28,285 bases of DNA, from positions 1 to 28,285 of the IMG/VR virus record IMGVR_UViG_3300032247_000579, one strand, 5' to 3'. A model generated the notes under the pieces. It had not been told where the DNA came from. It searched no databases and worked only from the letters and a program-made list of their open reading frames with translations. Made by a program: the position numbers and the translations under genes. This DNA is from a virus. Its lineage: Duplodnaviria; Caudoviricetes. This document shows, one piece after another, positions 3,538 through 19,212 of this stretch. The stretch's first letter is position 1; every line of letters begins with the position of its first letter.

Positions 3538-3578
3538 TCTAGGTGAACTCCTGTTATTTATATGTTAAGGTAGAATTA

Positions 3579-4034
3579 ATGCTAGGTAAACTAAAAGCCT
3601 GGACTTCCGCTGTCGCGCTTCTTGTAGGCGTGCTTACATCGCTACCGACAGCCCAAAGTCAGGCTCAAAATATCAACGCATCTTGTAGAGTTACTACAGA
3701 ATCTACAAGATCTTATAAGAGGTTACCGTATGCCTCAATCGAATACAATAAACAATTTGCCAGAATCTATATGCAAAACACGTACGGTTGGTGTGGCTCT
3801 CAGTATGTATGCTTACACACCTTATGGAACCACGAGAGCGGGTGGAGGGTCAACGCACATAACTCTTCATCAGGTGCTCATGGTATCCCACAGGCCCTAC
3901 CCGGGAGTAAAATGGGTACAGGGTGGAGAACTAATCCGAATGTCCAAATAATCTGGGGTTTGAAGTACATCAAATCGAGGTATAATACCCCTTGCAATGC
4001 GCTTTCCGTATGGAATCGCCAGCGCTGGTACTAA
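3579..4034 (+). CDS. Secreted lytic transglycosylase (SLT/lysozyme-like)
   Basis: N-terminal signal peptide (MLGKLKAW...AQSQA). LWNHESGWRVNAHNSSSGAHGIPQALPGSKM and QIIWGLKYIKSRY...PCNA motifs. ATG 3579 preferred over GTG 3543. Confidence 0.85.
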   Translation: MLGKLKAWTSAVALLVGVLTSLPTAQSQAQNINASCRVTTESTRSYKRLPYASIEYNKQFARIYMQNTYGWCGSQYVCLHTLWNHESGWRVNAHNSSSGAHGIPQALPGSKMGTGWRTNPNVQIIWGLKYIKSRYNTPCNALSVWNRQRWY

Positions 4035-4062
4035 TAGTACCTCTACTACTAAGGAATACTAC

Positions 4063-4458
4063 ATGTTAAAAAAGATTGCTATTGCATCAGTTGCTGTTCT
4101 AGCTTTGGCTGGTTGTGCATCCACTAAGTCTGCGGACCCTGCCCCAGCTCCGGCACCGGCAGCCGACTCCTATGTAAGCCCTGAAGATGTCTTCTTGGCT
4201 GACGTACATAGTATGAATGATCCCTATATTGAATCCACTACAGACTCAAATCTACTAGATATTGGTACCGCCACTTGTACCGCACTTGATGAAGGTAATA
4301 CTATTGATGAAATTGTTACTTACCTTATTCAAAGCGGTACGTTTAGCACTGCTGAGCAGGCAAAAGCTGCTGGTATGATCATTGCTGCTGCTGGCCTGGA
4401 CCTTTGTCCGGAGTACGCATCAGATGTACAAGCTTATGCAAATAGCTTATCTTCTTAG
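4063..4458 (+). CDS. Lipoprotein, DUF732-like
   Basis: AAGGA SD then ATG 4063; lipobox LAGC; PAPAPAPA linker; D..FL....G...C..L..G...A...CP pattern. Confidence 0.7.
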   Translation: MLKKIAIASVAVLALAGCASTKSADPAPAPAPAADSYVSPEDVFLADVHSMNDPYIESTTDSNLLDIGTATCTALDEGNTIDEIVTYLIQSGTFSTAEQAKAAGMIIAAAGLDLCPEYASDVQAYANSLSS

Positions 4459-4561
4459 ACACCTAACCGCGCCTATGGAAGGGCTCTAAGAACAATTGAG
4501 AACTAGATACGTTACGAAAGGGCAAAAGCCCCTAGGCGTTCGATAACCTCTCCTAGTCTCG

Positions 4562-4616
4562 ACACTTGAGCAGGTGTATAACATGCGCTTTGCCTGAGCA
4601 AGCAACAAAACTGCTC
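4562..4616 (+). ncRNA. Two tandem 27-nt H-type pseudoknot-like units
   Basis: ACAC-TTGAGCAG-GTGT-ATAACA-TGCGC (4562-4588) and TTGC-CTGAGCAA-GCAA-CAAAAC-TGCTC (4590-4616) share identical spacing. The stems differ but both pair, and the loop GAGCA is complementary to the downstream TGCTC. Confidence 0.5.
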
Positions 4617-4623
4617 ACCCCTA

Positions 4624-4704
4624 GGGGCTGGAAGGTTTCGACTATCAGTAAGGCCGCACGCGGAGACTGTTAGGACCAGAGTTCGATTCTCTGCAGCTCC
4701 ACCA
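4624..4704 (+). ncRNA. Minimal tmRNA-like RNA: tRNA-like domain only, no tag reading frame
   Basis: Acceptor GGGGCTG/CAGCTCC-A-CCA with G3.U70. Stemless D-loop GAAGGTTTCGA, helix CTATCAGT/ACTGTTAG, GAC linker, T-arm CAGAG-TTCGATT-CTCTG. Only 16 nt lie inside the helix. Confidence 0.8.
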
Positions 4705-4705
4705 A

Positions 4706-4778
4706 GCCTCCGTAGCTCAGTGGATAGAGCAGCAGGTTTCTACCCTGCGTGCCGCTGGTTCGATCCCAGCCGGGGGTA
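4706..4778 (+). tRNA. tRNA-Arg (anticodon TCT)
   Basis: Cloverleaf: acceptor GCCTCCG/CGGGGGT, D arm GCTC-AGTGGATA-GAGC, anticodon arm GCAGG-TTTCTAC-CCTGC, T arm GCTGG-TTCGATC-CCAGC. CCA is not encoded. Confidence 0.92.
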
Positions 4779-4817
4779 CGTATGTTTAACTATTTGAAAG
4801 CAGGGTAAGGTAGACAC

Positions 4818-5009
4818 ATTCCACGTTCAGGACAAACACCAACTAGAACTATCCGAGTTGACGACGACTTATGGGAGGCCGTACAGGCCCAGGCTAAAGT
4901 TGACGGCGTTACCGTTACAAGTATTATTATTGATGGTCTGCTAAGGTATCTTACAGACTCACGTCTTAGAAATGAGGAGGACCTTGACAATGGATCTTAT
5001 GGAGCTTGA
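4818..5009 (+). CDS. Ribbon-helix-helix (Arc/CopG-like) DNA-binding protein with apparent ATT start, not in ORF track
   Basis: Translates as (I/M)PRSGQTPTRTIRVDDDLWEAVQAQAKVDGVTVTSIIIDGLLRYLTDSR..., 63 aa, with the RHH strand-helix-G-helix pattern. There is an in-frame TAA at 4806 and no ATG/GTG/TTG before the domain. Confidence 0.75.
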   Translation: MPRSGQTPTRTIRVDDDLWEAVQAQAKVDGVTVTSIIIDGLLRYLTDSRLRNEEDLDNGSYGA

Positions 5010-5397
5010 GGGCTTAGTACAGCAGAACGTACTGCTAAAGAGCAAGATCGATGAACTTACCGCCATACAAAGCGGTGTAAAGAAGTCCCTTAAGGGAATT
5101 ATAGAAGAGGCCGGTGTCGTTGATGACCGTGGGCATATCGTTATTGAATTGCCACACGAAGTAGATGGCATCACCAAGGTAATGCAACAGCGCCGAGTGT
5201 CTAAGAGCCTAGACGAGGATGTAGCTGAAGCTCTCCTCTCTAAGAAGGGTATTGCCGAGCGTTGTATCAAGATGGTCCCAGTCCTTGATGAAGATGAAAT
5301 CATGAAGGCTTACTACGAGGGCGTTATCTCAGAGGAAGACATCGACACGATGTTCCCGTCTAAGGTTAGCTATGCCCTGGTAATGACTAAGGGATAA
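4990..5397 (+). CDS. Hypothetical phage protein (N-terminal coiled coil)
   Basis: GAGGAGG SD precedes ATG 4990, which is preferred to 4972. Abuts the next gene. Confidence 0.7.
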   Translation: MDLMELEGLVQQNVLLKSKIDELTAIQSGVKKSLKGIIEEAGVVDDRGHIVIELPHEVDGITKVMQQRRVSKSLDEDVAEALLSKKGIAERCIKMVPVLDEDEIMKAYYEGVISEEDIDTMFPSKVSYALVMTKG

Positions 5398-5398
5398 G

Positions 5399-5905
5399 AT
5401 GTCGGACTTTATTGACGAGACCTTCGCTAGTCTAGATGAGTACTACCCAGGTAGTAGGCGTAAGCGTAAATCAGTAGAGCCTGCAAAGGCTGAGGAGCCC
5501 AGAGAAGTTAACTGGGACTCACGCCCCTACGTCAAGACTATGCCCAATGGTACAGACATGGAGCTCTTTACCATCGGTGCTTTGGCCACAGCCCTAGACC
5601 GTCCTATAATTACGGTCAGGGACTGGGTCAAGAAAGGTTACCTACCTACTGCTCCATACCGAATGCCTTCTACAACAAATAAGAACGGCGACTCCCACCA
5701 GGGGCGTAGACTTTATAGTCGTGCTATGATTGAAGCTGTTGTAGAAATCTTTGATAAAGCCGGTCTACTTTCGCTAGAAAGAATAGAGTGGAATAATCAT
5801 AAAAAAATAGCGTTTAGTATCTCCGAAAGGTGGAATACTATCCGTATGCAAGAAACCAACACTGCCAATAATGCTAACCAGTTAGGAAATACCAATGGCC
5901 ATTAA
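5399..5905 (+). CDS. MerR-like helix-turn-helix DNA-binding protein
   Basis: LFTIGALATALDRPIITVRDWVKKGYLP...GRRLYSR. Confidence 0.75.
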   Translation: MSDFIDETFASLDEYYPGSRRKRKSVEPAKAEEPREVNWDSRPYVKTMPNGTDMELFTIGALATALDRPIITVRDWVKKGYLPTAPYRMPSTTNKNGDSHQGRRLYSRAMIEAVVEIFDKAGLLSLERIEWNNHKKIAFSISERWNTIRMQETNTANNANQLGNTNGH

Positions 5906-6554
5906 CCCATCATTCAAAGAAGCCTCCTTTGACACGGACGACGATGTGTTTGACATCGACGATCGACCTGCAAATGCAGGTGGAGCATCTTCAGTTGCAT
6001 CAGGCTGGGCTAGTGCTGAGGCCTTTACGGCTCCAGCAGGAGACTACCCAGTAGAGTTCAAGCACACTGAACAACCACAGGTACTTAAGTTCATTGACCC
6101 AGACGGGCCAGTAGCTGTTTACCGTCAGCACTTCCTTACAGCAAAGGAAGGCAAGAAGTCCTACGTATGTCTAGGCAATGGTTGCCCACTCTGCACAGAG
6201 CTTGGTAACCGACCAGAAGATAAGCGTGCGTTCAGCGTTGTAAACTTGAGCACTGCGCCTTTCCAGCGTCAGTTGCTTATCGCAACTCCGCGTCTGTTCA
6301 AGACACTGCATAGCCTTAACTTCACCCCTCAGGGCCCGCTCGCTAAGAACTACTGGGCAATCAGCCGTACCGGCGTGAAGCAGACCACTATGTACAACGT
6401 CAACCCTGTCAAGGGCCGTGACCTAGAGGAAGACTGGGGCATCAACGAAGCCGAAGTCAACGATTTCCTTAGTAGCGTAGAGGCGTATGACCGCTCTGTA
6501 GTTAAAGAGTCATCATTCGCTGAGCTTCTAGAGATTGCCAAGTCACTTTCCTAG
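5895..6554 (+). CDS. Single-stranded DNA-binding protein (gp32-like)
   Basis: YRQHF...YVC.G.GCPLC metal-binding motif, ISRTG...T.Y motif, acidic N-terminus, and position just upstream of the polymerase. Confidence 0.65.
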   Translation: MAINPSFKEASFDTDDDVFDIDDRPANAGGASSVASGWASAEAFTAPAGDYPVEFKHTEQPQVLKFIDPDGPVAVYRQHFLTAKEGKKSYVCLGNGCPLCTELGNRPEDKRAFSVVNLSTAPFQRQLLIATPRLFKTLHSLNFTPQGPLAKNYWAISRTGVKQTTMYNVNPVKGRDLEEDWGINEAEVNDFLSSVEAYDRSVVKESSFAELLEIAKSLS

Positions 6555-6564
6555 TCATTGCTGT

Positions 6565-6607
6565 GCCCCCAGATACCCTGCTACCCTGCGGAGTACCTGG
6601 GGGCTTT
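6565..6607 (+). terminator. GC-rich hairpin between SSB and DNA polymerase
   Basis: GCCCCCAG-A-TAC / GTA-C-CTGGGGGC stem followed by a short TTT. Confidence 0.5.
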
Positions 6608-6617
6608 AGGGGTTTAT

Positions 6618-8597
6618 ATGAATATCATTACTACACGCGAGCAACTAGAAGAGATGGTAGCCTACTACCTTACTCAGGACGCATTCGCATTTGACGTAGA
6701 AACAATTGGAGACCAACGAGGTCTCACTCCAGTAAATACTGTTGCATGGATCACTTTTGCAACCCACGGTCGCTGTGATGTTATCCCTATGGGTCATCCT
6801 AATGGCGACTTTATTCGTGATGACTTTCCACTTACGGGCGCAGGACAAAAGCGCATTGATGCGGGCCTTGCCTTACGTGCTAGCGACTACTCTAAGGATA
6901 AGAAGAAGGCTGTAAAGGTCTTTGGTAATCCTCCTAAGCAGTTATGGCCAGCAGAAGTGTTTGAGGTATTAGAGCCTCTGATGTTCAGTGAGTCTATACT
7001 TACCATTGGTCATAACCTCATTTTCGATTTGACCTCTGTAGCAAAGTACTACGGAGGTCGTGTGCCATCCGCGCCTTACTTCGATACCATGATCATGTCT
7101 TTTGTTGTAGATAACCGTAACAAGAACCGTTGTGGCCTTGCCGATTGTCTGAAACGTGAGTTAGGTTATGAGATGGAGAAGGGCGTAGGTAAAGAGATTG
7201 AGAAGTACTCTTTCGAAGACGTCGCTAAGTACGCCTACCTAGACTCTAAGTACACCTTCCTACTATGGAAGGCCTTAGTACCTAAGATTGATAGCGCTAA
7301 CCTTAATACTATCTTTGACCTTGAGATGGGAGTATTAGGTGTTCTAGCTGAGATGAAGCTATCCGGAGCTCCTATTGATGTCGATGCTCTTACCTTGCTA
7401 GATGCTAAGCTCCGTGAAGATATTGAGTCCGCCAGAGCAAAGATCTTTTCTATTGCCGGTGCGGTGTTTAACATCAACTCTAACCCTGAGAAGCAGGCAA
7501 TGCTTTACGGCTCTAAGGATGAGGGTGGACGAGGGTTAAAGCCCAAGCTCCTCACACTAGCAGGCCAGAAGAAAGATGCGCTAGGTCAACCTTTAACGTA
7601 CTCAGATTACTCTGTATCAGCGGATGCCTTAGAGGAGTACCGCGGACAAGATGAGTTAGTTGATGCCCTCTTAGAGTACGCGGACTTGAACAAGTTGAGT
7701 ACAACTTACGTAGTACCTTACCTAGGTGGCGAGGTAGTCCGCACTGTTAACGGAAAAGAAAAGCGCGAGCATAAAGACTCACTACTTATTAATGGAAGGA
7801 TCCACTGTGACTTTGTACAGCACGGTGCGGAAACAGGTCGTTTTAGCAGCCGCAATCCTAATCTACAGAACGTACCTGCTCCTCATACGCCTCACGGTAA
7901 GGCGATCCGTAATCTATTTTATGCCCCTGAAGGCTATAAACTGGTGGTTGCGGACTATAGTCAGATTGAACCGCGTGTCATTGCGTCTATGTCAAAAGAC
8001 CCTATCATGATGCAGAACTATCTCAATGGAGATGACATCTACACTACAGTAGGTGACACCATGGGGGTAGACCGTAAAGCAGGTAAGGTTCTTGTACTAG
8101 CTATGGCCTATGGCGTAGGTCCGGACAAGATTGCTAAGCAGATTGGCTGTTCATTGAAAGATGCTAGAGACCTTCTAGCTAACTTCAACAAAAAGTTTAC
8201 CGCGGTCAATACCTACCGTAGTAAGGTCATTGGTATTACTAAGGCTAACAACCCACACCATGTTCTTACTATTCTAGGTCGGCGACGCTATCTGCCAGAC
8301 ATTCTTTCCAAGGACGCCTTTACACGGGCATCCGCAGAGCGCCAGGCATTTAACACCAGAATCCAGGGCTCAGCCGCTGACATCATTAAGCTAGCTATGA
8401 TTAGAGCCCAAGAGTCACTCCCAAAGGAGTCCTCTATTATACTAACCGTCCATGACGAATTAGTTATCCTTACTCCAGAGGACCTTGCAGACAAAACTGC
8501 TGAATCCTTAAGAGAAGCTATGGAGGGCATCGACCTTCTAAACGTACCATTAATCGCAGATGTAAAAATAGTCCAAAGATGGGGTGAGGCCAAGTGA
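6618..8597 (+). CDS. polA: Family A DNA polymerase with 3'-5' exonuclease
   Basis: Exo motifs FDVET, GHNLIFD and YAYLD. TGRFSSRNPNLQN; motif A VADYSQIEPR; motif B RKAGKVLVLAMAYG; motif C TVHDEL. ATG 6618 is preferred because TTG 6558 lies before the hairpin. Confidence 0.95.
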   Translation: MNIITTREQLEEMVAYYLTQDAFAFDVETIGDQRGLTPVNTVAWITFATHGRCDVIPMGHPNGDFIRDDFPLTGAGQKRIDAGLALRASDYSKDKKKAVKVFGNPPKQLWPAEVFEVLEPLMFSESILTIGHNLIFDLTSVAKYYGGRVPSAPYFDTMIMSFVVDNRNKNRCGLADCLKRELGYEMEKGVGKEIEKYSFEDVAKYAYLDSKYTFLLWKALVPKIDSANLNTIFDLEMGVLGVLAEMKLSGAPIDVDALTLLDAKLREDIESARAKIFSIAGAVFNINSNPEKQAMLYGSKDEGGRGLKPKLLTLAGQKKDALGQPLTYSDYSVSADALEEYRGQDELVDALLEYADLNKLSTTYVVPYLGGEVVRTVNGKEKREHKDSLLINGRIHCDFVQHGAETGRFSSRNPNLQNVPAPHTPHGKAIRNLFYAPEGYKLVVADYSQIEPRVIASMSKDPIMMQNYLNGDDIYTTVGDTMGVDRKAGKVLVLAMAYGVGPDKIAKQIGCSLKDARDLLANFNKKFTAVNTYRSKVIGITKANNPHHVLTILGRRRYLPDILSKDAFTRASAERQAFNTRIQGSAADIIKLAMIRAQESLPKESSIILTVHDELVILTPEDLADKTAESLREAMEGIDLLNVPLIADVKIVQRWGEAK

Positions 8598-9070
8598 ATT
8601 GGTTTAACAAGCGAAAGAAAAACGTGTTTGAGGGGTTCTCCCCAAGCAGTCAGATTGAGACTAAGAATGTACCGCTCAGTACTTTGTACCGATGGTTCTT
8701 ATTCGATGTCAATGTAGACGACCCTAACAAGTTTGCAAAAGACGCAGGCTTCACACCTATCAGTGATGAAGGTGTACAGATAGAGCTCGAAGATAGTACT
8801 AGACGGCTTGCAAGAGTAGTTCCCTTCAAGGACTTCCTAGGTATTATGAGCAGCATCATGTCTGAGGTATTCGCGGAGTCAGTAGCAGCTGAGGCACTTA
8901 GTAGTGGGCTCATTGGTGAGGCTGATGATGTAGAGAGGCAGACAGATATCATCAAGGACATATGTGTTTCCCTTTCTATGACAGCTATGGTTCCTACTAT
9001 CGCTGCTGCGCTAGAGCTGGGTATCCTACAGGTACCTAGCAACTTCATTGGATCGCGTGATAGCCTATGA
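8594..9070 (+). CDS. Hypothetical protein
   Basis: GTGA overlap with the polymerase stop and ATGA overlap with the next gene. Confidence 0.7.
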   Translation: MNWFNKRKKNVFEGFSPSSQIETKNVPLSTLYRWFLFDVNVDDPNKFAKDAGFTPISDEGVQIELEDSTRRLARVVPFKDFLGIMSSIMSEVFAESVAAEALSSGLIGEADDVERQTDIIKDICVSLSMTAMVPTIAAALELGILQVPSNFIGSRDSL

Positions 9071-9438
9071 GTAACAACTGGTTCCTAGGAAAGATGGGCG
9101 CTCCCGCACAGCAGCCTCCTACCCCCCCATACACACCTCCGGCACCTACGCCATATAACCCACCTCCATCCATACCGCAAGAGGCTCCTCGTATGCCAGA
9201 GAGCGCACGAGATACGTCACGCTGCCCAGGTTGCGGTAGCGGTAACTACGGCAGAAGCGCACTAGCTCCTGAGGCGAAGGCTCGTTGTTACGACTGTGGA
9301 TATCCAGTGGTTCAATCCGGTAGTGGTATGGGCACGGGCATCTCCGGCGGTACACCTAGTGGTCCAGCCACTCCAGCTAAGCAGATCAGCACAGCAAATA
9401 ACTTTAACCCTCAAACCATTATTGGAAGGATTGAGTAA
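9067..9438 (+). CDS. Pro-rich protein with CxxC...CxxC zinc ribbon
   Basis: CPGCGSGNY...RCYDCGYP after a proline-rich N-terminus. Confidence 0.7.
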   Translation: MSNNWFLGKMGAPAQQPPTPPYTPPAPTPYNPPPSIPQEAPRMPESARDTSRCPGCGSGNYGRSALAPEAKARCYDCGYPVVQSGSGMGTGISGGTPSGPATPAKQISTANNFNPQTIIGRIE

Positions 9439-9713
9439 TGAATACTCCGTGGAAACTAAAACAACAACTAGCTGAACTAGAGGCTAGAGTCATCAGACTT
9501 GACCGTAAATGTTGGGAGCTAGACGAGCAGTTGTATCGTGTTACTCAAGATAGAGATGAGTATCGAGCCAAGTACGAGCTTCTGTACCACACCCCAGAGT
9601 ACAAAACTGACACAGAGGCTGCCTTTGCTCGTGGTTCAGACAAGATGCGTCAATCTATTATCGCTTGGTTAATTGAGATGCCCAGATTAGATTACAAAGT
9701 AGAGGACAATTAA
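9438..9713 (+). CDS. Hypothetical coiled-coil protein
   Basis: TAATG overlaps at both ends; heptad-like N-terminal half. Confidence 0.65.
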   Translation: MNTPWKLKQQLAELEARVIRLDRKCWELDEQLYRVTQDRDEYRAKYELLYHTPEYKTDTEAAFARGSDKMRQSIIAWLIEMPRLDYKVEDN

Positions 9714-10768
9714 TGGATGCAGATTTAGCTAAGGTAATTGCCAAACTCAACAAAAAGTTTGGCGAAGAAATGATTGTACTTGGGTCCAATATCAAGGACG
9801 AAGTCATGGGCAGGATGACCACAGGGTCGCTTGCCCTTGACGTCATTCTAGGTGGAGGCTTCCCAGTTAATCAGTGGCATGAGGTCGTAGGTGAAGCCTC
9901 TAATGGTAAGACTGCTCTTGCTCTTAAGACGGTAGCCGCTAACCAGAAACGTGACCCTAACTTCACTACAGTATGGGTAGCTGCTGAGTCATGGGTTCCA
10001 CAGTACGCAGAGATGTGTGGCGTGGACTTGAGTCGCGTGTTTGTAGTAGCCACCAATGTCATGGAGGAAGCTTACGAGGCTGTGATTGAGTTGGTAGAGA
10101 CCAAGGCTGTTGACTGCGTAGTTATTGACTCGCTTCCAGCATTGGTTCCTATGGCAGAGGACGATAAGAACATGGACGAGGCGACCGTCGGTCGTGGCGC
10201 CCTACTTACAGGTAAGTTCTTCCGCAAGGTAGGTAAGGCCTCCCGGCGTTCCCTTACAGAGGATGAGCGCCCCTTCATCGGCCTTATCATCAACCAGTAC
10301 CGTATGAAAATCGGCGTTATGTATGGTGACCCCCGTACTACTCCAGGTGGAGAGGCTAAGAACTATGCCTTCTTTACCCGTATTGAGGTCAAGCGTGACG
10401 ACTGGATTGAGACAGGCACTGGTCAGGAGAAGCGCAAGGTAGGTCAGACTATCAAGATCCGTACTCTAAAGAACAAGTCAGCTCCCCCATCACAGGTGGC
10501 CTACCTTGACTTCTACTTTGATGACGGGCAGTGCTTTGCTGGAGATTACGACTTTGCTAAGGAGATTGTAGCCCTAGGTATTATCAACAAGGTAATTACC
10601 AGAGCTGGTGCCTACTACTCCTACAAGGACCAAAAGTGGCAGGGCGGTGATGCTGTGCTACAATCTATTAGAGAGGATGTTGACCTCAAGGAAAGCCTAG
10701 AGCACGACGTACGTGATGCTGTAAGAGCGTCCTCTAAGTACGTTAAGGAGACTTCGGGTGAAGACTGA
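9713..10768 (+). CDS. recA: RecA-family recombinase
   Basis: TGSLALDVILGGGFP, GEASNGKT, VVIDSLPAL, INQYRMKIGVMYGDPRTTPGGEA, KNKSAPP and GAYYSY. Confidence 0.95.
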   Translation: MDADLAKVIAKLNKKFGEEMIVLGSNIKDEVMGRMTTGSLALDVILGGGFPVNQWHEVVGEASNGKTALALKTVAANQKRDPNFTTVWVAAESWVPQYAEMCGVDLSRVFVVATNVMEEAYEAVIELVETKAVDCVVIDSLPALVPMAEDDKNMDEATVGRGALLTGKFFRKVGKASRRSLTEDERPFIGLIINQYRMKIGVMYGDPRTTPGGEAKNYAFFTRIEVKRDDWIETGTGQEKRKVGQTIKIRTLKNKSAPPSQVAYLDFYFDDGQCFAGDYDFAKEIVALGIINKVITRAGAYYSYKDQKWQGGDAVLQSIREDVDLKESLEHDVRDAVRASSKYVKETSGED

Positions 10769-11090
10769 GGGCCAACGTCAATCTCAGAAGCACGAGAAGC
10801 GGATCGCTAAAGCTATCGGCGGTAGTACTATCGCCGCTAGCGGAGCGTTCTGGAGTCGCAAGGGAGATATACGAAGCGACGATCTACTCGTGGAGCACAA
10901 GTGGACAGGAAAGATGCAGGTAACTGTCAAAGCGGCAGTCCTAGAAAAGATCGTCAAGGAAGCTATCCTTGATGGCCGAACACCCGTTCTAGGTTTTCAT
11001 CTTAATGGCGAGAACTACGTCATGTTAGATGAGAACGACTTTCTGGAGCTCCGCCAAAAGCTCCAGGAGTGTACTTGCGAGACCCATTAG
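10758..11090 (+). CDS. PD-(D/E)xK nuclease, Hjc-like Holliday junction resolvase
   Basis: HEKRIAK...SGA...KGD...LVEHK motif; overlaps the end of recA. Confidence 0.7.
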   Translation: MKTEGQRQSQKHEKRIAKAIGGSTIAASGAFWSRKGDIRSDDLLVEHKWTGKMQVTVKAAVLEKIVKEAILDGRTPVLGFHLNGENYVMLDENDFLELRQKLQECTCETH

Positions 11091-11383
11091 ATATCGAGAG
11101 CTGGCGTGCTGACGCCAAGTGTAACGGGCTGGATACTGAATTATGGTATCCGCCAAGAGATAAAGAACTATATAAGCCTATTGCAGACCAAGCTAAGGCC
11201 GTCTGTCTAGGTAAAGATGGTAGACCACCTTGCCCGGTAAAGAACGAATGCTTACTCTACGCGGATAAGATGGACGATACCTATGGTATCTGGGGTGGTA
11301 TGAGCCACCGAGAGCGTAACGCTTTAAAGCGTAAGGCTAATAATAACGGCAAGACCCTTGCACAATGGGTCAAAGGAGAATAA
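11069..11383 (+). CDS. whiB: WhiB-family transcription factor
   Basis: WRADAKC...AKAVC...CPVKNECL.YA...GIWGGMSHRER, with four Cys and the GIWGG turn. Confidence 0.92.
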   Translation: MYLRDPLDIESWRADAKCNGLDTELWYPPRDKELYKPIADQAKAVCLGKDGRPPCPVKNECLLYADKMDDTYGIWGGMSHRERNALKRKANNNGKTLAQWVKGE

Positions 11384-11384
11384 T

Positions 11385-11687
11385 ATGACGCACCAACCGT
11401 TTAAGTGCCCAGACTGTGGGCTATGGTGGAGAACAGAGACACACCGATGCTCGGACTACCCACCTAACAAGGGGCTGAGCCCAGTACATCCGCCCAAACC
11501 TAAGTACCCATCAACTAAGATTGATGTAGATAACTTAGATCTATGTGTAGTATGCGAGCGGGTATATGATACTCGGTCACCACATCACTGTAACAAGTCA
11601 ATACAGTATGAGAAGAATAAGAAGCCTCAGTTTGACTCAAAAGATGATAGGTACAACCACCCAACCTATGACAAGTGGCGTAACTAG
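11385..11687 (+). CDS. Hypothetical Cys/His-rich protein
   Basis: AAGGAG SD then ATG 11385; CPDC...HRC and CVVC...HHC. Confidence 0.6.
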   Translation: MTHQPFKCPDCGLWWRTETHRCSDYPPNKGLSPVHPPKPKYPSTKIDVDNLDLCVVCERVYDTRSPHHCNKSIQYEKNKKPQFDSKDDRYNHPTYDKWRN

Positions 11688-11746
11688 ATCTAGCGTTTAG
11701 AGTAAGTAATACTGGGTAGATTAGATGTCTAGGAGAGGACACTAGA

Positions 11747-12610
11747 ATGGCTAAGCCAACAAAGAAACCAAGCGGTGCGCTTAAGGCGCTGGTCAATGCA
11801 GGAAAGCAAGAGACCAGAGCGTTGTCTGCTGTAGAGCGCTGGGTACTATCCCAGCCAGAAGATACTAGCCGACGCATGGATGTTATCCACCCGTCAGCTA
11901 TTATCAAGCAGGATTGGTGCCACCGCGCCCAGTATTACTTACTCATGGGGGAGTCCCCAGCACCTAAGCTCCTTACCCGTAGGCAAAAGGCCGTCTTTCA
12001 GATTGGCCATGATGTCCACGCTCGTTGGCAGGGCCTGTTCGGGGAAATGGGAGTGCTTCATGGTATATGGGAGTGCGACTATTGTGAGGCTAAGGCCTGG
12101 GGCACCTCACCTAAGTCCTGCGCCTGTGGGAATCTTGTTCTTTCTTACAACGAAGTTCCTGTCCTTGATAAAGATCTGCGTATAGCAGGTCACGCAGACG
12201 GCTGGTTACAGGGTCTTGGTGAGGATATCCTATTGGAGATTAAGTCAGTAGGCGATGGCACCATTCGATGGGAAGACCCAGGCCTTTGGTATGACTCTGA
12301 CCAAGATTTTAATAAAGCTTGGGCTAATATTAAAGCCCCCTTCTATAGCCACATCATGCAGACACAGGTCTATCTACATGTACTAGAGAAGACCTTTGGA
12401 GATGCCGCGCCTAAAGAGGTACTATTCATCTATGAAAACAAGCTTAACCAAGATGTTAAAGAGTTTGTAATCCCTAAGTCTAACTTCGGCATCACACATA
12501 TTATGGATGCCGTAGCTATGATTGTGGAATGCGCTGAGGCGGGCACTCCCCCAACGTGCAACGTTAACTCAGCAGGGTCTTGTAAACAATGTGAGGTATT
12601 TAATGATTAA
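11747..12610 (+). CDS. Cas4/RecB-like PD-(D/E)xK exonuclease
   Basis: HPS...WCHRAQYY, GHDVH, GHADG, LLEIKS, QTQVY and a C-terminal C...CKQC cluster. No CRISPR context. Confidence 0.8.
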   Translation: MAKPTKKPSGALKALVNAGKQETRALSAVERWVLSQPEDTSRRMDVIHPSAIIKQDWCHRAQYYLLMGESPAPKLLTRRQKAVFQIGHDVHARWQGLFGEMGVLHGIWECDYCEAKAWGTSPKSCACGNLVLSYNEVPVLDKDLRIAGHADGWLQGLGEDILLEIKSVGDGTIRWEDPGLWYDSDQDFNKAWANIKAPFYSHIMQTQVYLHVLEKTFGDAAPKEVLFIYENKLNQDVKEFVIPKSNFGITHIMDAVAMIVECAEAGTPPTCNVNSAGSCKQCEVFND

Positions 12611-13091
12611 GATGCAAGTTGGAGATGCTAGCAATGTTACGCTAGACCTTATGACTACTCAGGGATTTGTCATAGATAAGTCTTTCACCGGAATAATCCC
12701 TCAGATGCCAGATGATATCACGGACTGTGATGACTTAGGTGTCATGCGCTTATGGCAAGAGTACAATGCTTACCTAGCGTTCATCCTAGCCCAGGTAACA
12801 GTATCGCAGATGGATGAGTCTTCACATAAAAAGACTCTAGATTTAGTTGAGGCAAGGTATACAGCCCGACATACCCAGCCCAAAATGACAGTATCAGCTA
12901 TCAAAGCTCTTGTAGCAGTTGAGGGTGAGGTACAGGACGCGGAATGGAAGTATGATGTAGCTCATAACTACCGTAAAGGTATGGAGATGCTTTATACTAA
13001 CGTTGAGCGTGACTGCTCCTTTATCAGCCGTGAGTTAACTCGTCGTACTTCTAGCGGCTTTAGCTCCAGAGCAAGTAAGTTTACAACCTGA
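12603..13091 (+). CDS. Helical protein, possibly UvsY-like recombination mediator
   Basis: ATG 12603 overlaps the nuclease end. Long helical sequence ending SRELTRR. Function inferred from the recombination context only. Confidence 0.5.
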   Translation: MIKMQVGDASNVTLDLMTTQGFVIDKSFTGIIPQMPDDITDCDDLGVMRLWQEYNAYLAFILAQVTVSQMDESSHKKTLDLVEARYTARHTQPKMTVSAIKALVAVEGEVQDAEWKYDVAHNYRKGMEMLYTNVERDCSFISRELTRRTSSGFSSRASKFTT

Positions 13092-13336
13092 TGTGCGACT
13101 ACAGTAACCAAGCAGATATTCGTAGGGAGGCGCTCTCAGATATGATTCGGATTGCTGAAGAAGCTGGGCTTTACGAGAACGAGCCTACCCTTGATGAAGC
13201 AGCTGAGGCTGTTAAGCGTGTACGTCAGATACATAAGAAGATGAAGCATAGCTACGGTAAGATTGCCTGTACTGAGTGTGGTCAGACCTGGCCGTGTCAA
13301 ACCACTAGGGCATTAAACGGTGAGCTGCAGGGCTAA
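13091..13336 (+). CDS. Small phage protein with RVRxxH...CxxC...WPCxT motif
   Basis: TGATG/TAATG overlaps; similar to the 27493-27696 protein. Confidence 0.65.
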   Translation: MCDYSNQADIRREALSDMIRIAEEAGLYENEPTLDEAAEAVKRVRQIHKKMKHSYGKIACTECGQTWPCQTTRALNGELQG

Positions 13337-13482
13337 TGACTGACTGGGACGCCATAAAAAGCTCGGCAGATGGATGTTCTGCATGTGGCGATCCCCCATA
13401 CGCCCTACAGTATGACCCAAGTACCGATAAAGTCCTTAGTTCATGGTGCCTAAAGCACTTTAAAGAAGTGTATAATAAGTAG
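13336..13482 (+). CDS. 48-aa protein (MTDWDAIKSSADGCSACGDP...WCLKHF...), not in ORF track
   Basis: TAATG overlap with the upstream stop; CxxC...CxxH ligand set. Confidence 0.6.
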   Translation: MTDWDAIKSSADGCSACGDPPYALQYDPSTDKVLSSWCLKHFKEVYNK

Positions 13483-13510
13483 GTTAACCCTACCAGGCGG
13501 GCCCTAAGTA

Positions 13511-14095
13511 ATGACAACTATAGTAACTACAGTCTCATCTGAGTACGCTACTATGTTTGCAGATGAGGGCATCACCGGAGATTACATCCACCCGGACATG
13601 AATAAAATTATCGTCCGTGGGTCGTGGTTAATAGCGGTGTGCGGTGAGGATCGGATCTGTGACATCCTGCAATATACTATTAAGTACCCTGAGCCCCCAC
13701 AGTACTTACTAAACAAGCCAGATGATGAGTGGTTCTCCTGGATGGCCACCCGAGTAGTGCCAATAATCTACAAGGCTGTCGAGAAGCATCTACAGAAATC
13801 ATACTGGGGTACTATTGGAGAGAGTCAAGTACTACTAACTACATATGGTAGAAGCTTTCTAATAGGAGAGACCCTTGGGATCACCAGAGCTCAGCCATAC
13901 TGGAGTATTGGAAGTGGCTCACCAATTGCATTAGGTTCATTAGCAGGTTCAGCAGATGCTAAAGATTGGGGGAAGTACCACTCTAGGTATGCAAAGAAAG
14001 CTATAGAGACCGCAAAGAAGCATGACCCCTACACTAGAGGTAAGGTAACAGGCTTTAAATCACTTAAAGACGGAACAATAGAAGGTATAGTATGA
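13511..14095 (+). CDS. HslV/proteasome beta-like Ntn-hydrolase (Thr protease)
   Basis: N-terminal MTTIV, FAD, NKII, IGSGS..ALG and A...DPYT.G. Confidence 0.8.
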   Translation: MTTIVTTVSSEYATMFADEGITGDYIHPDMNKIIVRGSWLIAVCGEDRICDILQYTIKYPEPPQYLLNKPDDEWFSWMATRVVPIIYKAVEKHLQKSYWGTIGESQVLLTTYGRSFLIGETLGITRAQPYWSIGSGSPIALGSLAGSADAKDWGKYHSRYAKKAIETAKKHDPYTRGKVTGFKSLKDGTIEGIV

Positions 14096-14193
14096 ACTGC
14101 TCAAGCTGTAAAGCAAAGTCATTAAACATCTGGTTTCATTCAAAGAAAGATGAGCCCCTTTGTTATAAGTGTTACGTAGGTGGAAATGGGTAA
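14092..14193 (+). CDS. 33-aa zinc-finger micro-protein (MNCSSCKAK...LCYKCYVGGNG), not in ORF track
   Basis: ATGA overlap with the protease stop; CxxC...CxxC; overlaps the start of the RuvC-like gene. Confidence 0.6.
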   Translation: MNCSSCKAKSLNIWFHSKKDEPLCYKCYVGGNG

Positions 14194-14737
14194 AAAAGTA
14201 TTCGGAGTCCCAAATCTTAAAGGTCCCGTATGTATAGGTATAGATCAATCCTACTCAGGGTTTGCCATGACCGCTATCGACGGCAGTAATAACTATTATA
14301 CTGAGGTCCATAAGCTAGAGGGTAACGGCGTAGAAAGACTGGAGCACGCTCGCCGTGTTATTTATGGCTTTACTAATCACTTTGAAGTACAGGCTGTAGC
14401 TATGGAGGGCTACGCCTACGGTAGCCAAATGGCGAACATGGCTGGAGAATTAGGGGCAGTGGTTAAGTTAACCCTATGGGATAGGTTCAGTCCTCAATAC
14501 CCAGAGGCTAGGTTCCCCCTGGTTGTACCACCTACTAGCCTTAAGAAGTATGTAACGGGCAAGGGCACGGGGGTCAAGAAGAACCAGATGCTTCTAGCTA
14601 TCTACAAGAAGTGGGACGTAGAGTTTACCTCAGATGACGCGGCTGACTCCTATGGACTAGCCAGGATTGCTATGAATAAGCACGATTTTGAGTATGAAAA
14701 AGAAGTTTACGATAAGCTGACTTCAGCAAGAAATTAG
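14186..14737 (+). CDS. ruvC: RuvC-like Holliday junction resolvase
   Basis: IGIDQS, VAMEG, P.SLKKYVTGKG...K and DDAADSYGLA. Confidence 0.85.
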   Translation: MGKKVFGVPNLKGPVCIGIDQSYSGFAMTAIDGSNNYYTEVHKLEGNGVERLEHARRVIYGFTNHFEVQAVAMEGYAYGSQMANMAGELGAVVKLTLWDRFSPQYPEARFPLVVPPTSLKKYVTGKGTGVKKNQMLLAIYKKWDVEFTSDDAADSYGLARIAMNKHDFEYEKEVYDKLTSARN

Positions 14738-14803
14738 CTGGGCTTTACCTCATAATTAAGTAGAGCAACGTTTGCTACACCGATCACTATACGAGGTATT
14801 TAT

Positions 14804-15082
14804 ATGTCCGAAACACCGAAACAAGACGTACTAAAAGTAAGTGCTAGTTCAAGCCCACAGACCGTGGCAGCAGCTATCGCCCATAGTATTTACGAGACTA
14901 GGACCTGCACCCTTCGTGCTGTAGGTGCTGGAGCAGTAAATCAGGGGATCAAAGCTATTGCTATTGCCCGAGGGTATACAGCACCTAAAGGTTACGACCT
15001 AAAATGTATCCCGGGGTTTACTACCATTGAAAGTCACGATGGAGAGATCTCAGCAATTGCCCTTACCGTTGTACCAGATTAA
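14804..15082 (+). CDS. spoVS: SpoVS-like (Alba-fold) protein
   Basis: VLKVSASSSPQTVAAAIA...LRAVGAGAVNQGIKAIAIARGY.AP.G.DL.CIPGF closely matches the SpoVS consensus. Confidence 0.88.
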   Translation: MSETPKQDVLKVSASSSPQTVAAAIAHSIYETRTCTLRAVGAGAVNQGIKAIAIARGYTAPKGYDLKCIPGFTTIESHDGEISAIALTVVPD

Positions 15083-15106
15083 TTAATACTATTTTAAGAG
15101 GTTGAC

Positions 15107-15424
15107 ATGTCAAAACCACTAGCTCCAGGTCCAGACGCAGCGCCATCAGGCGCATCCGCGGTTAATGCGTCAGGCGCCCCCTCAGAGCACACCACCCTAG
15201 TTCCTAAGGCTAACAGAGCCGCTGGGGACCCCGCAGCTATGCCTCATGCTCATACTGCTTACGCCCCTAAGGAGCGCACAGGTGCTGCTTATGGTATTCA
15301 GGTAGGCTTTGAGGCACATACCGAACCAGCTGCTGGCTTTACTCAAGCTAACGGACGCATCTTCCAAGCTGCTGTTAATAGAAGTGCACCTAACTTCTAC
15401 TCTGGTGCTCAAGATCATAACTAA
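15107..15424 (+). CDS. Hypothetical Ala/Pro-rich protein
   Basis: AAGAGGT SD; followed by a terminator. Confidence 0.7.
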   Translation: MSKPLAPGPDAAPSGASAVNASGAPSEHTTLVPKANRAAGDPAAMPHAHTAYAPKERTGAAYGIQVGFEAHTEPAAGFTQANGRIFQAAVNRSAPNFYSGAQDHN

Positions 15425-15441
15425 TTTAATAAAACCCATCG

Positions 15442-15470
15442 AAACCCCGTCAAAAAATTGGCGGGGTTTT
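15442..15470 (+). terminator. Rho-independent terminator
   Basis: AAACCCCGTCAA-AAAA-TTGGCGGGGTTT hairpin ending in a T run. Confidence 0.75.
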
Positions 15471-15535
15471 GACGTTTGAACAGCGGAAATTGAGGTAGAC
15501 TAAAGGGCAAGTACTACCAACCATACGGAGAAAGT

Positions 15536-15775
15536 ATGCTGATTAACGCATTAAACGGTTATCTTGAGGGTAAAATCCCAACCGCCTTGTGCCTAGTAGG
15601 TAAGTGGCTAGAGGAACAAGAAGCCGATGTAAAAGAAGTTTTCTACCAGCTGTACGAGCGTGAGAGTATTAACTTCTCCGCACTGTACCGTGCTATTGAG
15701 GAGTCTGAACTGCCCTTCAAGTTCACTACCTTTAAGGTACATATGAAGGGGCAGTGCCAGTGCCCACGTCCTTAA
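15536..15775 (+). CDS. Hypothetical protein (C...H..G.C.C metal-binding pattern)
   Basis: GGAG SD; CLVGKWL...FKVHMKGQCQCP. Confidence 0.65.
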   Translation: MLINALNGYLEGKIPTALCLVGKWLEEQEADVKEVFYQLYERESINFSALYRAIEESELPFKFTTFKVHMKGQCQCPRP

Positions 15776-16776
15776 ATTTAATTGACCTCATTACCGAGGC
15801 GCTAGAGACCCCACGGGTCTCAGTCTCCACGAACCTAGTTCAGGCTAAGGCCGCTAATTTACCTAAGTTATCAAAGGCTAAAGTAAAAAATAAAAAAAGC
15901 AATGAGTGGAAACTAGCAGTAGCCTTACCTGATACACAGATTGGCTTCCGTAAGTATGAGGACGGAGCGCTAGACCCATTCCATGATGTACACGCTATTA
16001 ACGTAGCGCTACAGGTTGTAGCTGCGCTTGAGGCTGAATATGGAGTAGACAAGGTAATTAACCTTGGAGATACACTAGACCTACCGATGTTTGGTAAGTA
16101 TGCTACAGAGCCTACATTTGAGGGAACAGTAAACTTGTCACTCAAGGCTGCTCATGACTACATCGCTAGCCAACGTGCATTAGCACCTAACGCCGAAATC
16201 GTCTACATTGATGGTAATCACGATTGCCGACCTACTAGGTACATCACAGCTATGGCTAAGAACTTGTCTGAGGTACGTCAGGTAGGGGCCACAGACCCTA
16301 TTATCGGTATCCCGCACCTTCTCAACCTTAATAGCATCGGTAATGTGACCCACGTATCTGGTTACCCAGCGGATAAGTACTACATTAACCCAAGGTTGGT
16401 AGCCCGGCATGGATCAGCTGCAGCTAGCAACGGTTCTACTGCCCTTAAGCATGTTAATAGTAATCACCATGAGTCTACTATTTACGGCCATTCACACCGG
16501 ATGGAGTTGTTGTACAAGACTCACGATACAAGCGGTGGGCCAATCCAGAACGGCGCGTACAGCCCAGGGTGTCTATGCCGTATTGATGGTGCAGTTCCTT
16601 CTTATAAGGGAGGCACGATGCTAAACCTTCACCCAGTAAAGCAATACGAAAACTGGCAACAGGGTGTGGGAATCATCTGGTACAAAGATACTGGCGAGTT
16701 CACCATTGAGAACGTACATATCATGGATGGATGGGCCGTATATTCTGGCACAGAGTTTAGGTCAACTTATAAATAA
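15754..16776 (+). CDS. Calcineurin-like metallophosphoesterase
   Basis: LPDTQIG, NLGDTLD, DGNHD, RHG and YGHSHR motifs. Exact start uncertain. Confidence 0.85.
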   Translation: MPVPTSLNLIDLITEALETPRVSVSTNLVQAKAANLPKLSKAKVKNKKSNEWKLAVALPDTQIGFRKYEDGALDPFHDVHAINVALQVVAALEAEYGVDKVINLGDTLDLPMFGKYATEPTFEGTVNLSLKAAHDYIASQRALAPNAEIVYIDGNHDCRPTRYITAMAKNLSEVRQVGATDPIIGIPHLLNLNSIGNVTHVSGYPADKYYINPRLVARHGSAAASNGSTALKHVNSNHHESTIYGHSHRMELLYKTHDTSGGPIQNGAYSPGCLCRIDGAVPSYKGGTMLNLHPVKQYENWQQGVGIIWYKDTGEFTIENVHIMDGWAVYSGTEFRSTYK

Positions 16777-16796
16777 AGGTACCGTACAATAGGTAC

Positions 16797-17336
16797 ATGG
16801 CCAATAACCATCAAAACGTACAAAATCTAGGTGCCGGCGGTATGTATGGCACCAATACCACCTATGGTGGTGGCGGTGTACCCGTTGCTCGTTCTGAGCT
16901 CGACTTCCTACGTATCGGTGTAGGCAGAGTACCGTCCGCAGAGTACCCAGATGGTTACTTAGGAACCATTCGTTCCCGCCGCGATGACCGAGGCCGGCCT
17001 TCTAGCACATCAGACACAGTTCTGAATAGCCTGAAGATCCGCCTCGGTCAACGTGGTTACCAAAGAGGCGTCCACCGTGGCGAGCGCATTGACCCCTCAG
17101 ACTACTTTTATCCATCAGAGCTTGACCCAGAACGTGGGATTAAGCGCCAGATGCGTGCAAAATATAATGGTAATACCTACCTTTCAGCACGACATGTAGA
17201 GAACCAGAAGCTGGTTCCAGCTCCTCACCTACCTAATGATGGCAAAGCTGGCCCAAGTGTAAGAAGCGATTCCCCTTATAATATGGATGAAAAGCGGGTA
17301 TCACAGCTTCGTAACATGAAGCCAAGCTGGAGTTAA
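16797..17336 (+). CDS. Hypothetical protein
   Basis: 179-aa ORF preceded by TACAAT-N6-ATG. Confidence 0.75.
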   Translation: MANNHQNVQNLGAGGMYGTNTTYGGGGVPVARSELDFLRIGVGRVPSAEYPDGYLGTIRSRRDDRGRPSSTSDTVLNSLKIRLGQRGYQRGVHRGERIDPSDYFYPSELDPERGIKRQMRAKYNGNTYLSARHVENQKLVPAPHLPNDGKAGPSVRSDSPYNMDEKRVSQLRNMKPSWS

Positions 17337-17338
17337 TA

Positions 17339-18238
17339 GTGGCTAGAAAAGAAACACAGTCTGAGGTAACAGCCTCCCCATCACCCGACGGAGATTCTAC
17401 AGATGTAGACACCCCAAAGGGTTGGTCACCATCTAGAGTAAATGCGTTTAGACTAGGTGACCAAAATACTAAAGCACTTAAGCTAGACCCAGTTGAGTTT
17501 AGAGAAGCTTTTATTGTTCCAGGAACTAAAAAACTAACCACTGAAATTCAAAACCCCGACGTACTTAGAGCTAATAAAAATATTCGTTTAATGGCGGAAC
17601 GTTCTGCGGAGGCAGCAGATTTTGCAGTCAGGCATGGTTATCAGGAAGAGGCAGAAAACTTCTACCGTAATGAAAGTGCTCAGGCAGAAGCTATTGGACG
17701 TAGGTTTAATGATGCTAGAGAAGCTAGGGGGCTTGAGCAGTACCTACCCCACAACCACGCACTAGCTGGGCATCTACTGTTAGGTGGTTATAGTCAAAGA
17801 ACCTTAGAATCCGCAAGAAAAAGTTTAGTTGAAAGAAGTGCTAGCAGCGGGTTAATTGTCCCTCATATCGCAGCAAAAACGATGCAAAGGGCAATTGACT
17901 CCCAAACCCATCCTCTAGACGTATGGACAAGGGGAAAGCTACACGATTTTACTGGCTCAGCTATTCACCCAGATAGCTGGGATGGTACGTGGCGTGGAGT
18001 ACAGCGAGGACTTGGCTATTGTCAAGATAGGCATGCCTTTGACCTAAAAATGGGAAGGCAATTTGGTGAGTTAGATAGGGGTATTGGAACCCCGTCATCT
18101 GATACAAGTATCAGATCTTATCGAGTTCATCAGGCGGCTGATGAGTTAGGTCATTCATTCTTTGATCCCTCGGGTAGAACTTCTCGACCAACTTTTCAAG
18201 CTCTGGGCTGGGCTGGCTGGAGGGGCGGGGTAATGTGA
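17339..18238 (+). CDS. Hypothetical protein, possible distant HhH DNA-glycosylase-like fold
   Basis: 299-aa ORF. The K...F, DRHA and C-terminal QA..W..WR pattern gives only a weak family inference. Confidence 0.6.
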   Translation: MARKETQSEVTASPSPDGDSTDVDTPKGWSPSRVNAFRLGDQNTKALKLDPVEFREAFIVPGTKKLTTEIQNPDVLRANKNIRLMAERSAEAADFAVRHGYQEEAENFYRNESAQAEAIGRRFNDAREARGLEQYLPHNHALAGHLLLGGYSQRTLESARKSLVERSASSGLIVPHIAAKTMQRAIDSQTHPLDVWTRGKLHDFTGSAIHPDSWDGTWRGVQRGLGYCQDRHAFDLKMGRQFGELDRGIGTPSSDTSIRSYRVHQAADELGHSFFDPSGRTSRPTFQALGWAGWRGGVM

Positions 18239-18398: not shown

Positions 18399-18425
18399 AT
18401 ATAAATAGTAACATAGGTAGGACAT

Positions 18426-19009: not shown

Positions 19010-19212
19010 CAGTTCCATACAGACGTTCCCCAAATGCAGAGCTAAATGAGGGATCTACAGACGGCAAGTACCGCAAGCGCCGTCCAAATACAACAGTAGC
19101 AGCAGGTATGGGTGACCAGACCGTTATCAAGAACCGAGCTGATCTACACCCGTACATGAATTATGGCTTCATCAACTCTGAAGAGCCTTCTAAAGTAAAT
19201 CCAGGAGCATAA
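19006..19212 (+). CDS. Hypothetical protein
   Basis: ATGA overlap; 68 aa. Confidence 0.65.
   Translation: MTVPYRRSPNAELNEGSTDGKYRKRRPNTTVAAGMGDQTVIKNRADLHPYMNYGFINSEEPSKVNPGA

What the first reader, a model, noticed from the sequence alone, without database searches (positions are those of the whole stretch)
4624..4704. Phage-encoded 'mini-tmRNA': intact tRNA-like domain with the whole mRNA-like domain deleted
Seen: an 81-nt RNA starting GGGGCTGGAAGGTTTCGAC and ending GGACCAGAGTTCGATTCTCTGCAGCTCCACCA. The acceptor stem pairs 7/7 including G3.U70, with discriminator A and encoded CCA. It has a stemless D-loop, a helix-2a equivalent (4642-4649/4666-4673, one T-T mismatch), the GAC linker and a perfect T-arm. 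Known: these are the tmRNA TLD hallmarks (AlaRS identity, SmpB-binding elbow), and the 5' end resembles actinobacterial ssrA. Normal tmRNA carries roughly 250-300 nt of pseudoknots and tag ORF inside helix 2; here there are only 16 nt (AAGG-CCG-CACG-CGG-AG). The order is not permuted, so it is not a two-piece tmRNA. Tagless tmRNAs are known to me only from some protist mitochondria. Inference: an alanylated SmpB-binding RNA that either sequesters SmpB and blocks host trans-translation, or enters stalled ribosomes without adding a degradation tag. Either could counter ribosome-stalling or tRNA/mRNA-cleaving defences.
Basis: partly seen in the sequence, partly recalled or inferred. Interest (0 to 1): 0.92.

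Follow-up and report, generated by a model that had tools for sequence, protein, structure and literature searches.

The report
Phage tagless mini-tmRNA, DS6A family
This phage carries a real 81-base gene that keeps only the tRNA-like end of the bacterial ribosome-rescue RNA (tmRNA); the same kind of RNA was already reported from mycobacteriophage DS6A, is common but unannotated in phages, and likely competes with the host's rescue-and-tag system.

Summary
Window 4624-4704 scores 61.7 bits against Rfam tmRNA (cut-off 47), with both ends present and 16 nt inside helix 2a; ARAGORN misses it. An independent assembly spans it unbroken.

It is not new in kind. Phage DS6A's 'TLD only' tmRNA is in print (PMC4131195, PMC11915505) as an inhibitor of host tmRNA, and it carries the same CCGCACGCGG inner hairpin. 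This scan also reported the kind at least eight times on other phage DNA.

What I add is family evidence. I found 130 distinct sequences, mostly 77-80 nt, with strongly covarying helix 2a. G3·U70 is kept in 91 of 91 where neither base was fixed by the search, while neighbouring pairs change freely. Streptomyces phages carry it unannotated. In this phage's own clade it is accessory (4 of 40 loci spanning the slot), and no full tmRNA was found there.

Likely mechanism: an alanylated RNA that competes for SmpB and non-stop ribosomes and lowers ssrA tagging (0.55). Main rival: tagless rescue or alanine tailing (0.25). Expression is not shown.

The parts
4624..4704 (+). TLD-only (tagless) tmRNA gene, 81 nt including encoded CCA
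   Evidence: RF00023 61.7 bits; family model R1 91.2 bits, though the window is in its training set
4624..4630 (+). Acceptor stem 5' strand; G4626 is G3 of the G3·U70 alanine identity pair
   Evidence: sequence; G-U at pair 3 in 130 of 130 unique family members
4631..4641 (+). Stemless D-loop; 4638 and 4640 correspond to E. coli U17 and G19, which contact SmpB
   Evidence: E. coli numbering checked on ssrA; contacts from PMC8363625 passages
4642..4649 (+). Helix 2a 5' strand
   Evidence: covariation
4650..4665 (+). 16-nt cap in place of pseudoknots and tag ORF: purine-rich internal loop plus 3-bp hairpin 4654-4663 (CCGCACGCGG), identical hairpin in DS6A
4666..4673 (+). Helix 2a 3' strand
   Evidence: covariation; T4670 is C in a relative that has G4645
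4674..4676 (+). GAC connector; A4675 corresponds to E. coli A334 of the SmpB pocket
4677..4693 (+). T-arm, 5 bp with TTCGATT loop
4694..4704 (+). Acceptor 3' strand (U70 at 4698), discriminator A4701, CCA
4577..4582 (+). Possible -10 hexamer (TATAAC) 42 nt upstream of the gene; no matching -35 box found; inferred promoter only
   Evidence: motif listing; not called by the promoter scan; same upstream sequence in L340
4706..4779 (+). tRNA-Arg(TCT), one base after the CCA; likely the same precursor transcript
   Evidence: ARAGORN, Rfam 63.2 bits; same tandem in L340 and L387

Best explanation
The 81-base gene encodes only the tRNA-like domain of tmRNA, and it likely acts as an alanine-charged competitor that binds host SmpB and would lower ssrA tagging during infection. 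Shown: the TLD anatomy, absence of any tag frame, a large conserved phage family, and shared ancestry with the DS6A RNA. Inferred: co-transcription with tRNA-Arg, 5' maturation by RNase P, charging by AlaRS through G3·U70, binding of SmpB and EF-Tu, and then removal of SmpB from host tmRNA plus occupation of non-stop ribosomes without supplying a tag. The benefit to the phage is inferred: fewer phage proteins tagged for proteolysis, or more ribosomes withheld from host quality control.
For: Published inhibition of endogenous tmRNA by the DS6A form or a similar molecule, 'perhaps by titrating SmpB' (PMC4131195; PMC11915505; both cite Mao 2009, which I could not read). The window RNA and DS6A share the cap hairpin and 50 of 77 aligned bases. 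Helix 2a positions 2-7 pair in 678 of 744 cells versus 324 after shuffling; covariation score 0.627 versus 0.145 shuffled and at most 0.136 slid. G3·U70 is kept in 91 of 91 unique sequences from the scan that left both bases free, while pairs 4-6 each take 4 to 6 forms. SmpB-contact equivalents U17, G19 and A334 are present in the window. A -10-like hexamer sits at -15 to -11 in 21 of 107 non-redundant upstream regions versus 8.3 expected, maximum 18 in 1000 shuffles. Two bacterial genomes holding a short form also hold a full ssrA (G003, G004), so it is an addition and not a replacement.
Against: The published inhibition did not need alanylation, yet G3·U70 is invariant, so a pure sponge does not explain the selection; ribosome entry or 3'-end protection must be added. 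[quoted passage not shown] The inhibition was seen on expression in E. coli, not in an infected natural host. Conservation of the D-loop end and connector across the family was largely imposed by my search patterns and is not independent evidence. Expression is not shown.
Confidence: 0.55

Rival explanations
1. Tagless rescue or alanine tailing: Ala-TLD with SmpB and EF-Tu would enter non-stop ribosomes, accept the nascent chain, eject the broken mRNA and repeat, adding one or more C-terminal alanines before release by host factors. The phage would gain ribosome recycling rather than blockade.
For: A TLD-only RNA plus SmpB makes polyalanine in vitro without template (Shimizu and Ueda 2006, as described in PMC2481249 and PMC3929946). 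G3·U70 is invariant. Length is tightly held, 77-80 nt to the discriminator in 108 of 130, as expected if helix 2 must pass between ribosomal subunits. Tagless mitochondrial tmRNAs co-occur with SmpB and are thought to help with incomplete mRNAs. The gene often sits among tRNA genes (25 of 99 loci within 1.5 kb).
Against: No stop codon can be presented, so release needs another factor; no Pth, ArfB or SmpB domain was found among 280 neighbouring ORFs of 62 loci, though genes further away were not seen. The only in vivo report is inhibition.
Confidence: 0.25
2. Decoy for RNA-cutting defences or RNases that recognise tRNA or tmRNA shape; SmpB binding would be incidental.
For: Presence is patchy like a counter-defence gene: 4 of 40 clade loci that span the slot, with no fixed neighbours. 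Phage-linked t(m)RNA fragments inhibit RNase R-dependent CRISPR immunity in another system (PMC11662646 passages).
Against: It lacks an anticodon loop and the mRNA-like region, the parts cut in that system. A decoy would not obviously need G3·U70. No paper linking phage tmRNA, SmpB and anti-phage defence was returned.
Confidence: 0.1
3. Alanine donor for non-ribosomal transfer (cell wall, lipid or N-terminal modification), using only the acceptor arm.
For: Invariant alanine identity; no anticodon.
Against: D-loop, connector and helix 2a keep the tmRNA form rather than a generic minihelix; no aminoacyl-transferase is a recurrent neighbour.
Confidence: 0.05
4. Non-functional remnant: an attP copy of the ssrA 3' end, a decaying deletion allele, or an assembly artefact.
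For: ssrA is a common integration site; Mycobacterium phage Validus has only the 3' end beside its integrase.
Against: Both ends are present; compensatory changes run through every helix; no integrase domain in the window or among 280 neighbour ORFs; in DS6A the gene lies about 10 kb from the integrase; independent contigs show the short form.
Confidence: 0.03

Closest known systems
TLD-only (CDS-less, standard-order) tmRNA of Mycobacterium phage DS6A (JN698994 28478-28560; tmID 11587, Phage__Mycobacterium.9; PMC4131195, PMC11915505)
   Same: Same order, size (80 versus 78 nt to the discriminator), G3·U70, helix 2a capped by an A-rich loop and CCGCACGCGG hairpin; 50 of 77 aligned bases identical.
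   Different: Window RNA has an 11-nt D-loop and canonical GAC connector (DS6A 13 nt, CAC), encodes full CCA, lies next to tRNA-Arg(TCT), and sits in a phage whose closest cultured polymerase relatives are Streptomyces phages.
Standard one-piece tmRNA (Rfam RF00023)
   Same: Acceptor stem, G3·U70, D-loop, helix 2a, connector and T-arm; D-loop end GGTTTCGAC as in actinobacterial ssrA L343 and L346.
   Different: No pseudoknots, resume codon, tag frame or stop: 32 nt from helix 2a start to end, against total lengths of 336-386 nt for six full genes.
Tagless organellar tmRNAs (jakobid and oomycete mitochondria, Mallomonadaceae plastids; PMC11915505)
   Same: No tag frame; alanine acceptor.
   Different: Those are the organelle's only tmRNA and mostly permuted; this one is phage-borne, non-permuted and coexists with a host's full ssrA.
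Full-length phage tmRNAs (mycobacteriophages Bxz1, Wildcat; Bacillus phage G; permuted form in Melnitz)
   Same: Phage-encoded ssrA derivatives.
   Different: Those keep the tag frame.

Membership tests
DS6A-type TLD-only phage tmRNA | Both TLD halves in standard order with no coding region | tested here: met
DS6A-type TLD-only phage tmRNA | Phage-encoded | tested here: met
   window is a virus record with phage replication genes
DS6A-type TLD-only phage tmRNA | Sequence and structure homology to the DS6A RNA in the cap region | tested here: met
   identical CCGCACGCGG hairpin, same fold, 50 of 77 identity
DS6A-type TLD-only phage tmRNA | Inhibits endogenous tmRNA when expressed | not testable with these tools
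   reported for DS6A or a similar molecule only
Standard tmRNA (RF00023) | Alanine acceptor: G3·U70, A73, CCA | tested here: met
   charging itself not measured
Standard tmRNA (RF00023) | SmpB-contact bases (E. coli A15, U17, G19, A334) | tested here: inconclusive
   U17, G19 and A334 equivalents present; the A15 equivalent is U, as in actinobacterial ssrA; binding not measured
Standard tmRNA (RF00023) | mRNA-like domain with resume codon, tag frame and stop | tested here: not met
   16 nt inside helix 2a
Standard tmRNA (RF00023) | Pseudoknot ring | tested here: not met
   no room; cap folds as one small hairpin
Permuted two-piece tmRNA | 3' TLD half precedes 5' half with an intervening sequence | tested here: not met
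   standard order; no second TLD half in the window
Canonical tRNA-Ala | D-stem and anticodon arm | tested here: not met
   no ARAGORN call; RF00023 is the best clan match
attP remnant of ssrA | 3' fragment only, adjacent to an integrase | tested here: not met
   contrast with Validus

The most novel reading that the evidence does not exclude
Phages use a widespread family of alanine-charged TLD RNAs as a template-free tailing device: with host SmpB they take over non-stop ribosomes and add C-terminal alanines in place of the ssrA tag, the in vivo counterpart of the polyalanine reaction so far seen only in vitro, so the phage rewrites the fate of stalled proteins.
Probability: 0.2. Interest if true: 0.75.

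Novelty: new member of a known kind. Interest (0 to 1): 0.33.

Why it matters
The kind is known from one printed phage example, and the 2025 tmRNA database lists only 9 standard-order genes without a coding region. Pattern scans show hundreds of phage copies that ARAGORN and GenBank annotation miss. Cultured Streptomyces phages (LuckySocke, GiJojo, pSt2308) carry the gene, so its role in infection can be tested directly in a harmless host. Invariant G3·U70 says the charged form matters, which the published sponge model does not require. That makes sponge versus ribosome entry a sharp, cheap experiment. This particular copy adds little beyond being one more member.

Tried and rejected
Expression: a 151-nt contig of RNA run X14 (depth 3) bridges a relative's gene at 4598-4702, but the same run has 9 scattered low-depth pieces over 4800-24500, so DNA carry-over or general transcription cannot be excluded; no expression claim is made. 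The depth of 642 at 4658-4704 comes from contigs that fit only the 3' end and run on unlike the window, likely other organisms' tmRNA.

Single-sequence folding was uninformative (z -1.15).

Hidden mini-tag: a stop triplet lies in the cap in 85 of 122 members. DS6A and LuckySocke lack it, 3 of 6 full-length genes have the same triplets at the helix 2a junction, and I ran no shuffle control, so I read it as a structural by-product.

Model R1 over 151 genomes of the phylum of G002 gave 1 match, the 3' end of a full tmRNA; only about 31 candidates per genome were scored, so this is 'not found in those searched'.

Partner gene: none recurrent among 280 of 298 ORFs of 110 aa or more near 62 loci; 18 ORFs, mostly ones overlapping the RNA gene or another ORF, and all shorter ORFs were not scanned.

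L341/L393 ends just before the slot and cannot be scored.

Mao et al. 2009 was not held. Searches for a paper describing the family found none beyond the two DS6A mentions; subscription journals are not covered, and I did not open the supplements of PMC11915505, which may list more phage examples. The weak Rfam matches to YrlA and mascRNA (E about 0.5) are below threshold and were rejected.

Full report
1. Observation. Rfam RF00023 scores 4624-4704 at 61.7 bits against a gathering score of 47, matching both ends of the model with about 303 consensus positions replaced by 11 bases. ARAGORN finds only the tRNA-Arg(TCT) that starts two bases later. The fold of the single sequence is not significant (z -1.15), so the structure needed comparative support. 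A Logan contig of run X1, which may be this DNA's source, spans 4000-5400 unbroken. A contig from another sample (X2) shows the same short gene with substitutions. The T4645-T4670 mismatch is G·U in X2 and L340 and G-C in an X14 contig. Assembly collapse is excluded.

2. Context. The window is a 28-kb virus record with helicases, primase, PolA, RecA, WhiB and a class II ribonucleotide reductase, and no integrase domain. Its PolA is closest, at 39-41%, to Streptomyces phages LuckySocke, Alone3, GiJojo, pSt2308 and BRock. With WhiB and DUF732 this points to an actinobacterial host (inference). LuckySocke, GiJojo and pSt2308 match the gene over 98% of its length; in the two regions I opened it lies unannotated inside tRNA arrays and passes the RF00023 cut-off.

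3. Family. Pattern scans of IMG/VR gave 11 loci, 84 loci with 49 unique sequences, and, with the 5' end left free, 120 rows at the cap with about 530 estimated. Of 98 unique sequences in that last set, 89 had a 7/7 acceptor stem. Pooling all sources and keeping those with at least 6/7 acceptor pairs, a 5/5 T-stem and a GG start left 130 unique sequences; 108 of 130 are 77-80 nt to the discriminator. This filter dropped 7 of the 98 and one 3'-damaged copy (L020). Pair 3 is G·U in 130 of 130, and in 91 of 91 from the scan where neither base was specified; the filter would have passed G-C or A-U. Pairs 4-6 vary freely with compensation. Helix 2a positions 2-7 pair in 678 of 744 cells versus a shuffled mean of 324. 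On a MAFFT alignment of 52 of the 130 (those I chose for a similar cap), 96% of cells pair and the covariation score is 0.627 versus 0.145 shuffled and at most 0.136 slid. The D-loop end and connector were fixed by my patterns, so their conservation is not independent evidence. A -10-like hexamer lies at -15 to -11 in 21 of 107 non-redundant upstream regions versus 8.3 expected, which suggests many copies have their own promoter.

4. Distribution in this clade. Of 69 viral loci found with the PolA, 6 hold the short gene and none has an ARAGORN tmRNA call. Of the 40 that span the slot from the helicase to the ORF at 4972, 4 hold it. A 98%-identical relative has it at the same place (L340). It is therefore an accessory gene and not a one-off deletion of a gene that relatives keep whole. 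In cellular genomes it is rare: 3 of 120 capped rows, and two of those three genomes also have a full ssrA. No integrase, SmpB, Pth or release-factor domain appeared among 280 of 298 neighbouring ORFs from 62 loci.

5. What is known. Hudson, Lau and Williams 2014 (PMC4131195; passages and section 10 read) list 'Mycobacterium phage DS6A (TLD only)' and say a similar molecule, chargeable or not, strongly inhibits tmRNA, perhaps by titrating SmpB. Nawrocki, Petrov and Williams 2025 (PMC11915505; part 1 of the text, part 1 of Results and passages read) say the DS6A form inhibits endogenous tmRNA when expressed in E. coli, and count 9 standard genes with no coding region. The two wordings differ on which molecule was tested, and the primary paper (Mao 2009) was not available. 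I located the DS6A gene: it has the same CCGCACGCGG hairpin in the same fold and 50 of 77 aligned bases in common. The window RNA is a member of that kind. It is not a member of standard tmRNA (no tag frame, no pseudoknots), permuted tmRNA or tRNA-Ala. This scan's index lists eight earlier reports of the same kind on other phage genomes; I read them after reaching this view, and they are not support. Searches for a paper on the wider family found none, within a library that lacks most subscription journals.

6. Mechanism. The acceptor is built for AlaRS. The D-loop and connector carry the equivalents of E. coli U17, G19 and A334, which contact SmpB (PMC8363625 passages; numbering checked); the A15 equivalent is U, as in actinobacterial ssrA. 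The best-supported model is a charged competitor that draws SmpB from host tmRNA and lowers tagging (0.55). Against it, a pure sponge does not need G3·U70, and active tmRNA is required by at least one phage (PMC2481249 passages). The main rival is ribosome entry: TLD plus SmpB makes polyalanine without template in vitro (Shimizu and Ueda 2006, seen only as described in PMC2481249 and PMC3929946 passages), so the RNA could recycle non-stop ribosomes or tail proteins with alanine (0.25). The two overlap, since entry also blocks tagging. A nuclease decoy (0.1), a non-ribosomal alanine donor (0.05) and a remnant (0.03) are weaker. Other papers opened: PMC9004378 and PMC11662646 (passages), PMC8012679 and 10.64898/2026.10.08.757657 (passages; nothing on phage TLD-only RNAs seen). 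Expression could not be shown.

7. Verdict. A real, conserved and probably functional RNA gene, but a new member of a known kind that this scan has met repeatedly. The remaining value is at family level: its breadth, its invariant alanine identity, and cultured Streptomyces phages in which sponge versus alanine tailing can be tested. Interest 0.33.

Noticed in passing
window 4706-4779: tRNA-Arg(TCT) without encoded CCA directly follows the mini-tmRNA. AGA is 58 of 363 arginine codons in 28 window ORFs. Stalling at rare AGA codons is a recalled trigger of ssrA tagging, so the two genes may address the same problem; untested.
   Followed up: partly
window 3538-4971; L357-L425: The interval between the SNF2 helicase and the ORF at 4972 is a variable slot in this phage clade: empty in most relatives, otherwise holding mixes of a transglycosylase, a DUF732 lipoprotein, tRNAs and the mini-tmRNA.
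   Followed up: partly
window 4035-4476: A relative in run X2 skips these 440 bases, which hold the DUF732 lipoprotein gene, but keeps the mini-tmRNA.
   Followed up: no
L024:1501-1580 and L036:1501-1580: One 136-kb viral contig carries two different copies of the mini-tmRNA about 67 kb apart.
   Followed up: no
L105:842-904, L159, L180, L204, L347: An ultra-short 63-nt class: helix 2a closed directly by a 4-6-nt loop with no inner hairpin, G3·U70 kept.
   Followed up: no
L106, L124, L148, L163, L175: In one phage group the gene sits between the prohead protease and major capsid genes; in most of them it follows a terminator-like hairpin and a -10-like hexamer.
   Followed up: no
PP725410.1 17025-17103 (hit H3): In Streptomyces phage GiJojo a 'hypothetical protein 44' is annotated over the mini-tmRNA, probably a miscall.
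   Followed up: no
L347, L348, L349: Short forms inside cellular assemblies: a cyanobacterium and a Butyrivibrio MAG, both with a full ssrA elsewhere, and a MAG labelled as an archaeon with no full ssrA; probably prophage or misbinned phage contigs, not checked.
   Followed up: partly
window 14804-15082, 13511-14095, 23018-24484: SpoVS-family gene (PF04232, 99.8 bits), HslV-family peptidase (phrog_1040) and a queuine tRNA-ribosyltransferase-like protein (phrog_887) in the same phage.
   Followed up: no
window 4476-4570: The non-coding stretch upstream of the gene is kept in close relatives but folds no better than shuffles (z -0.14) and has no Rfam match.
   Followed up: partly
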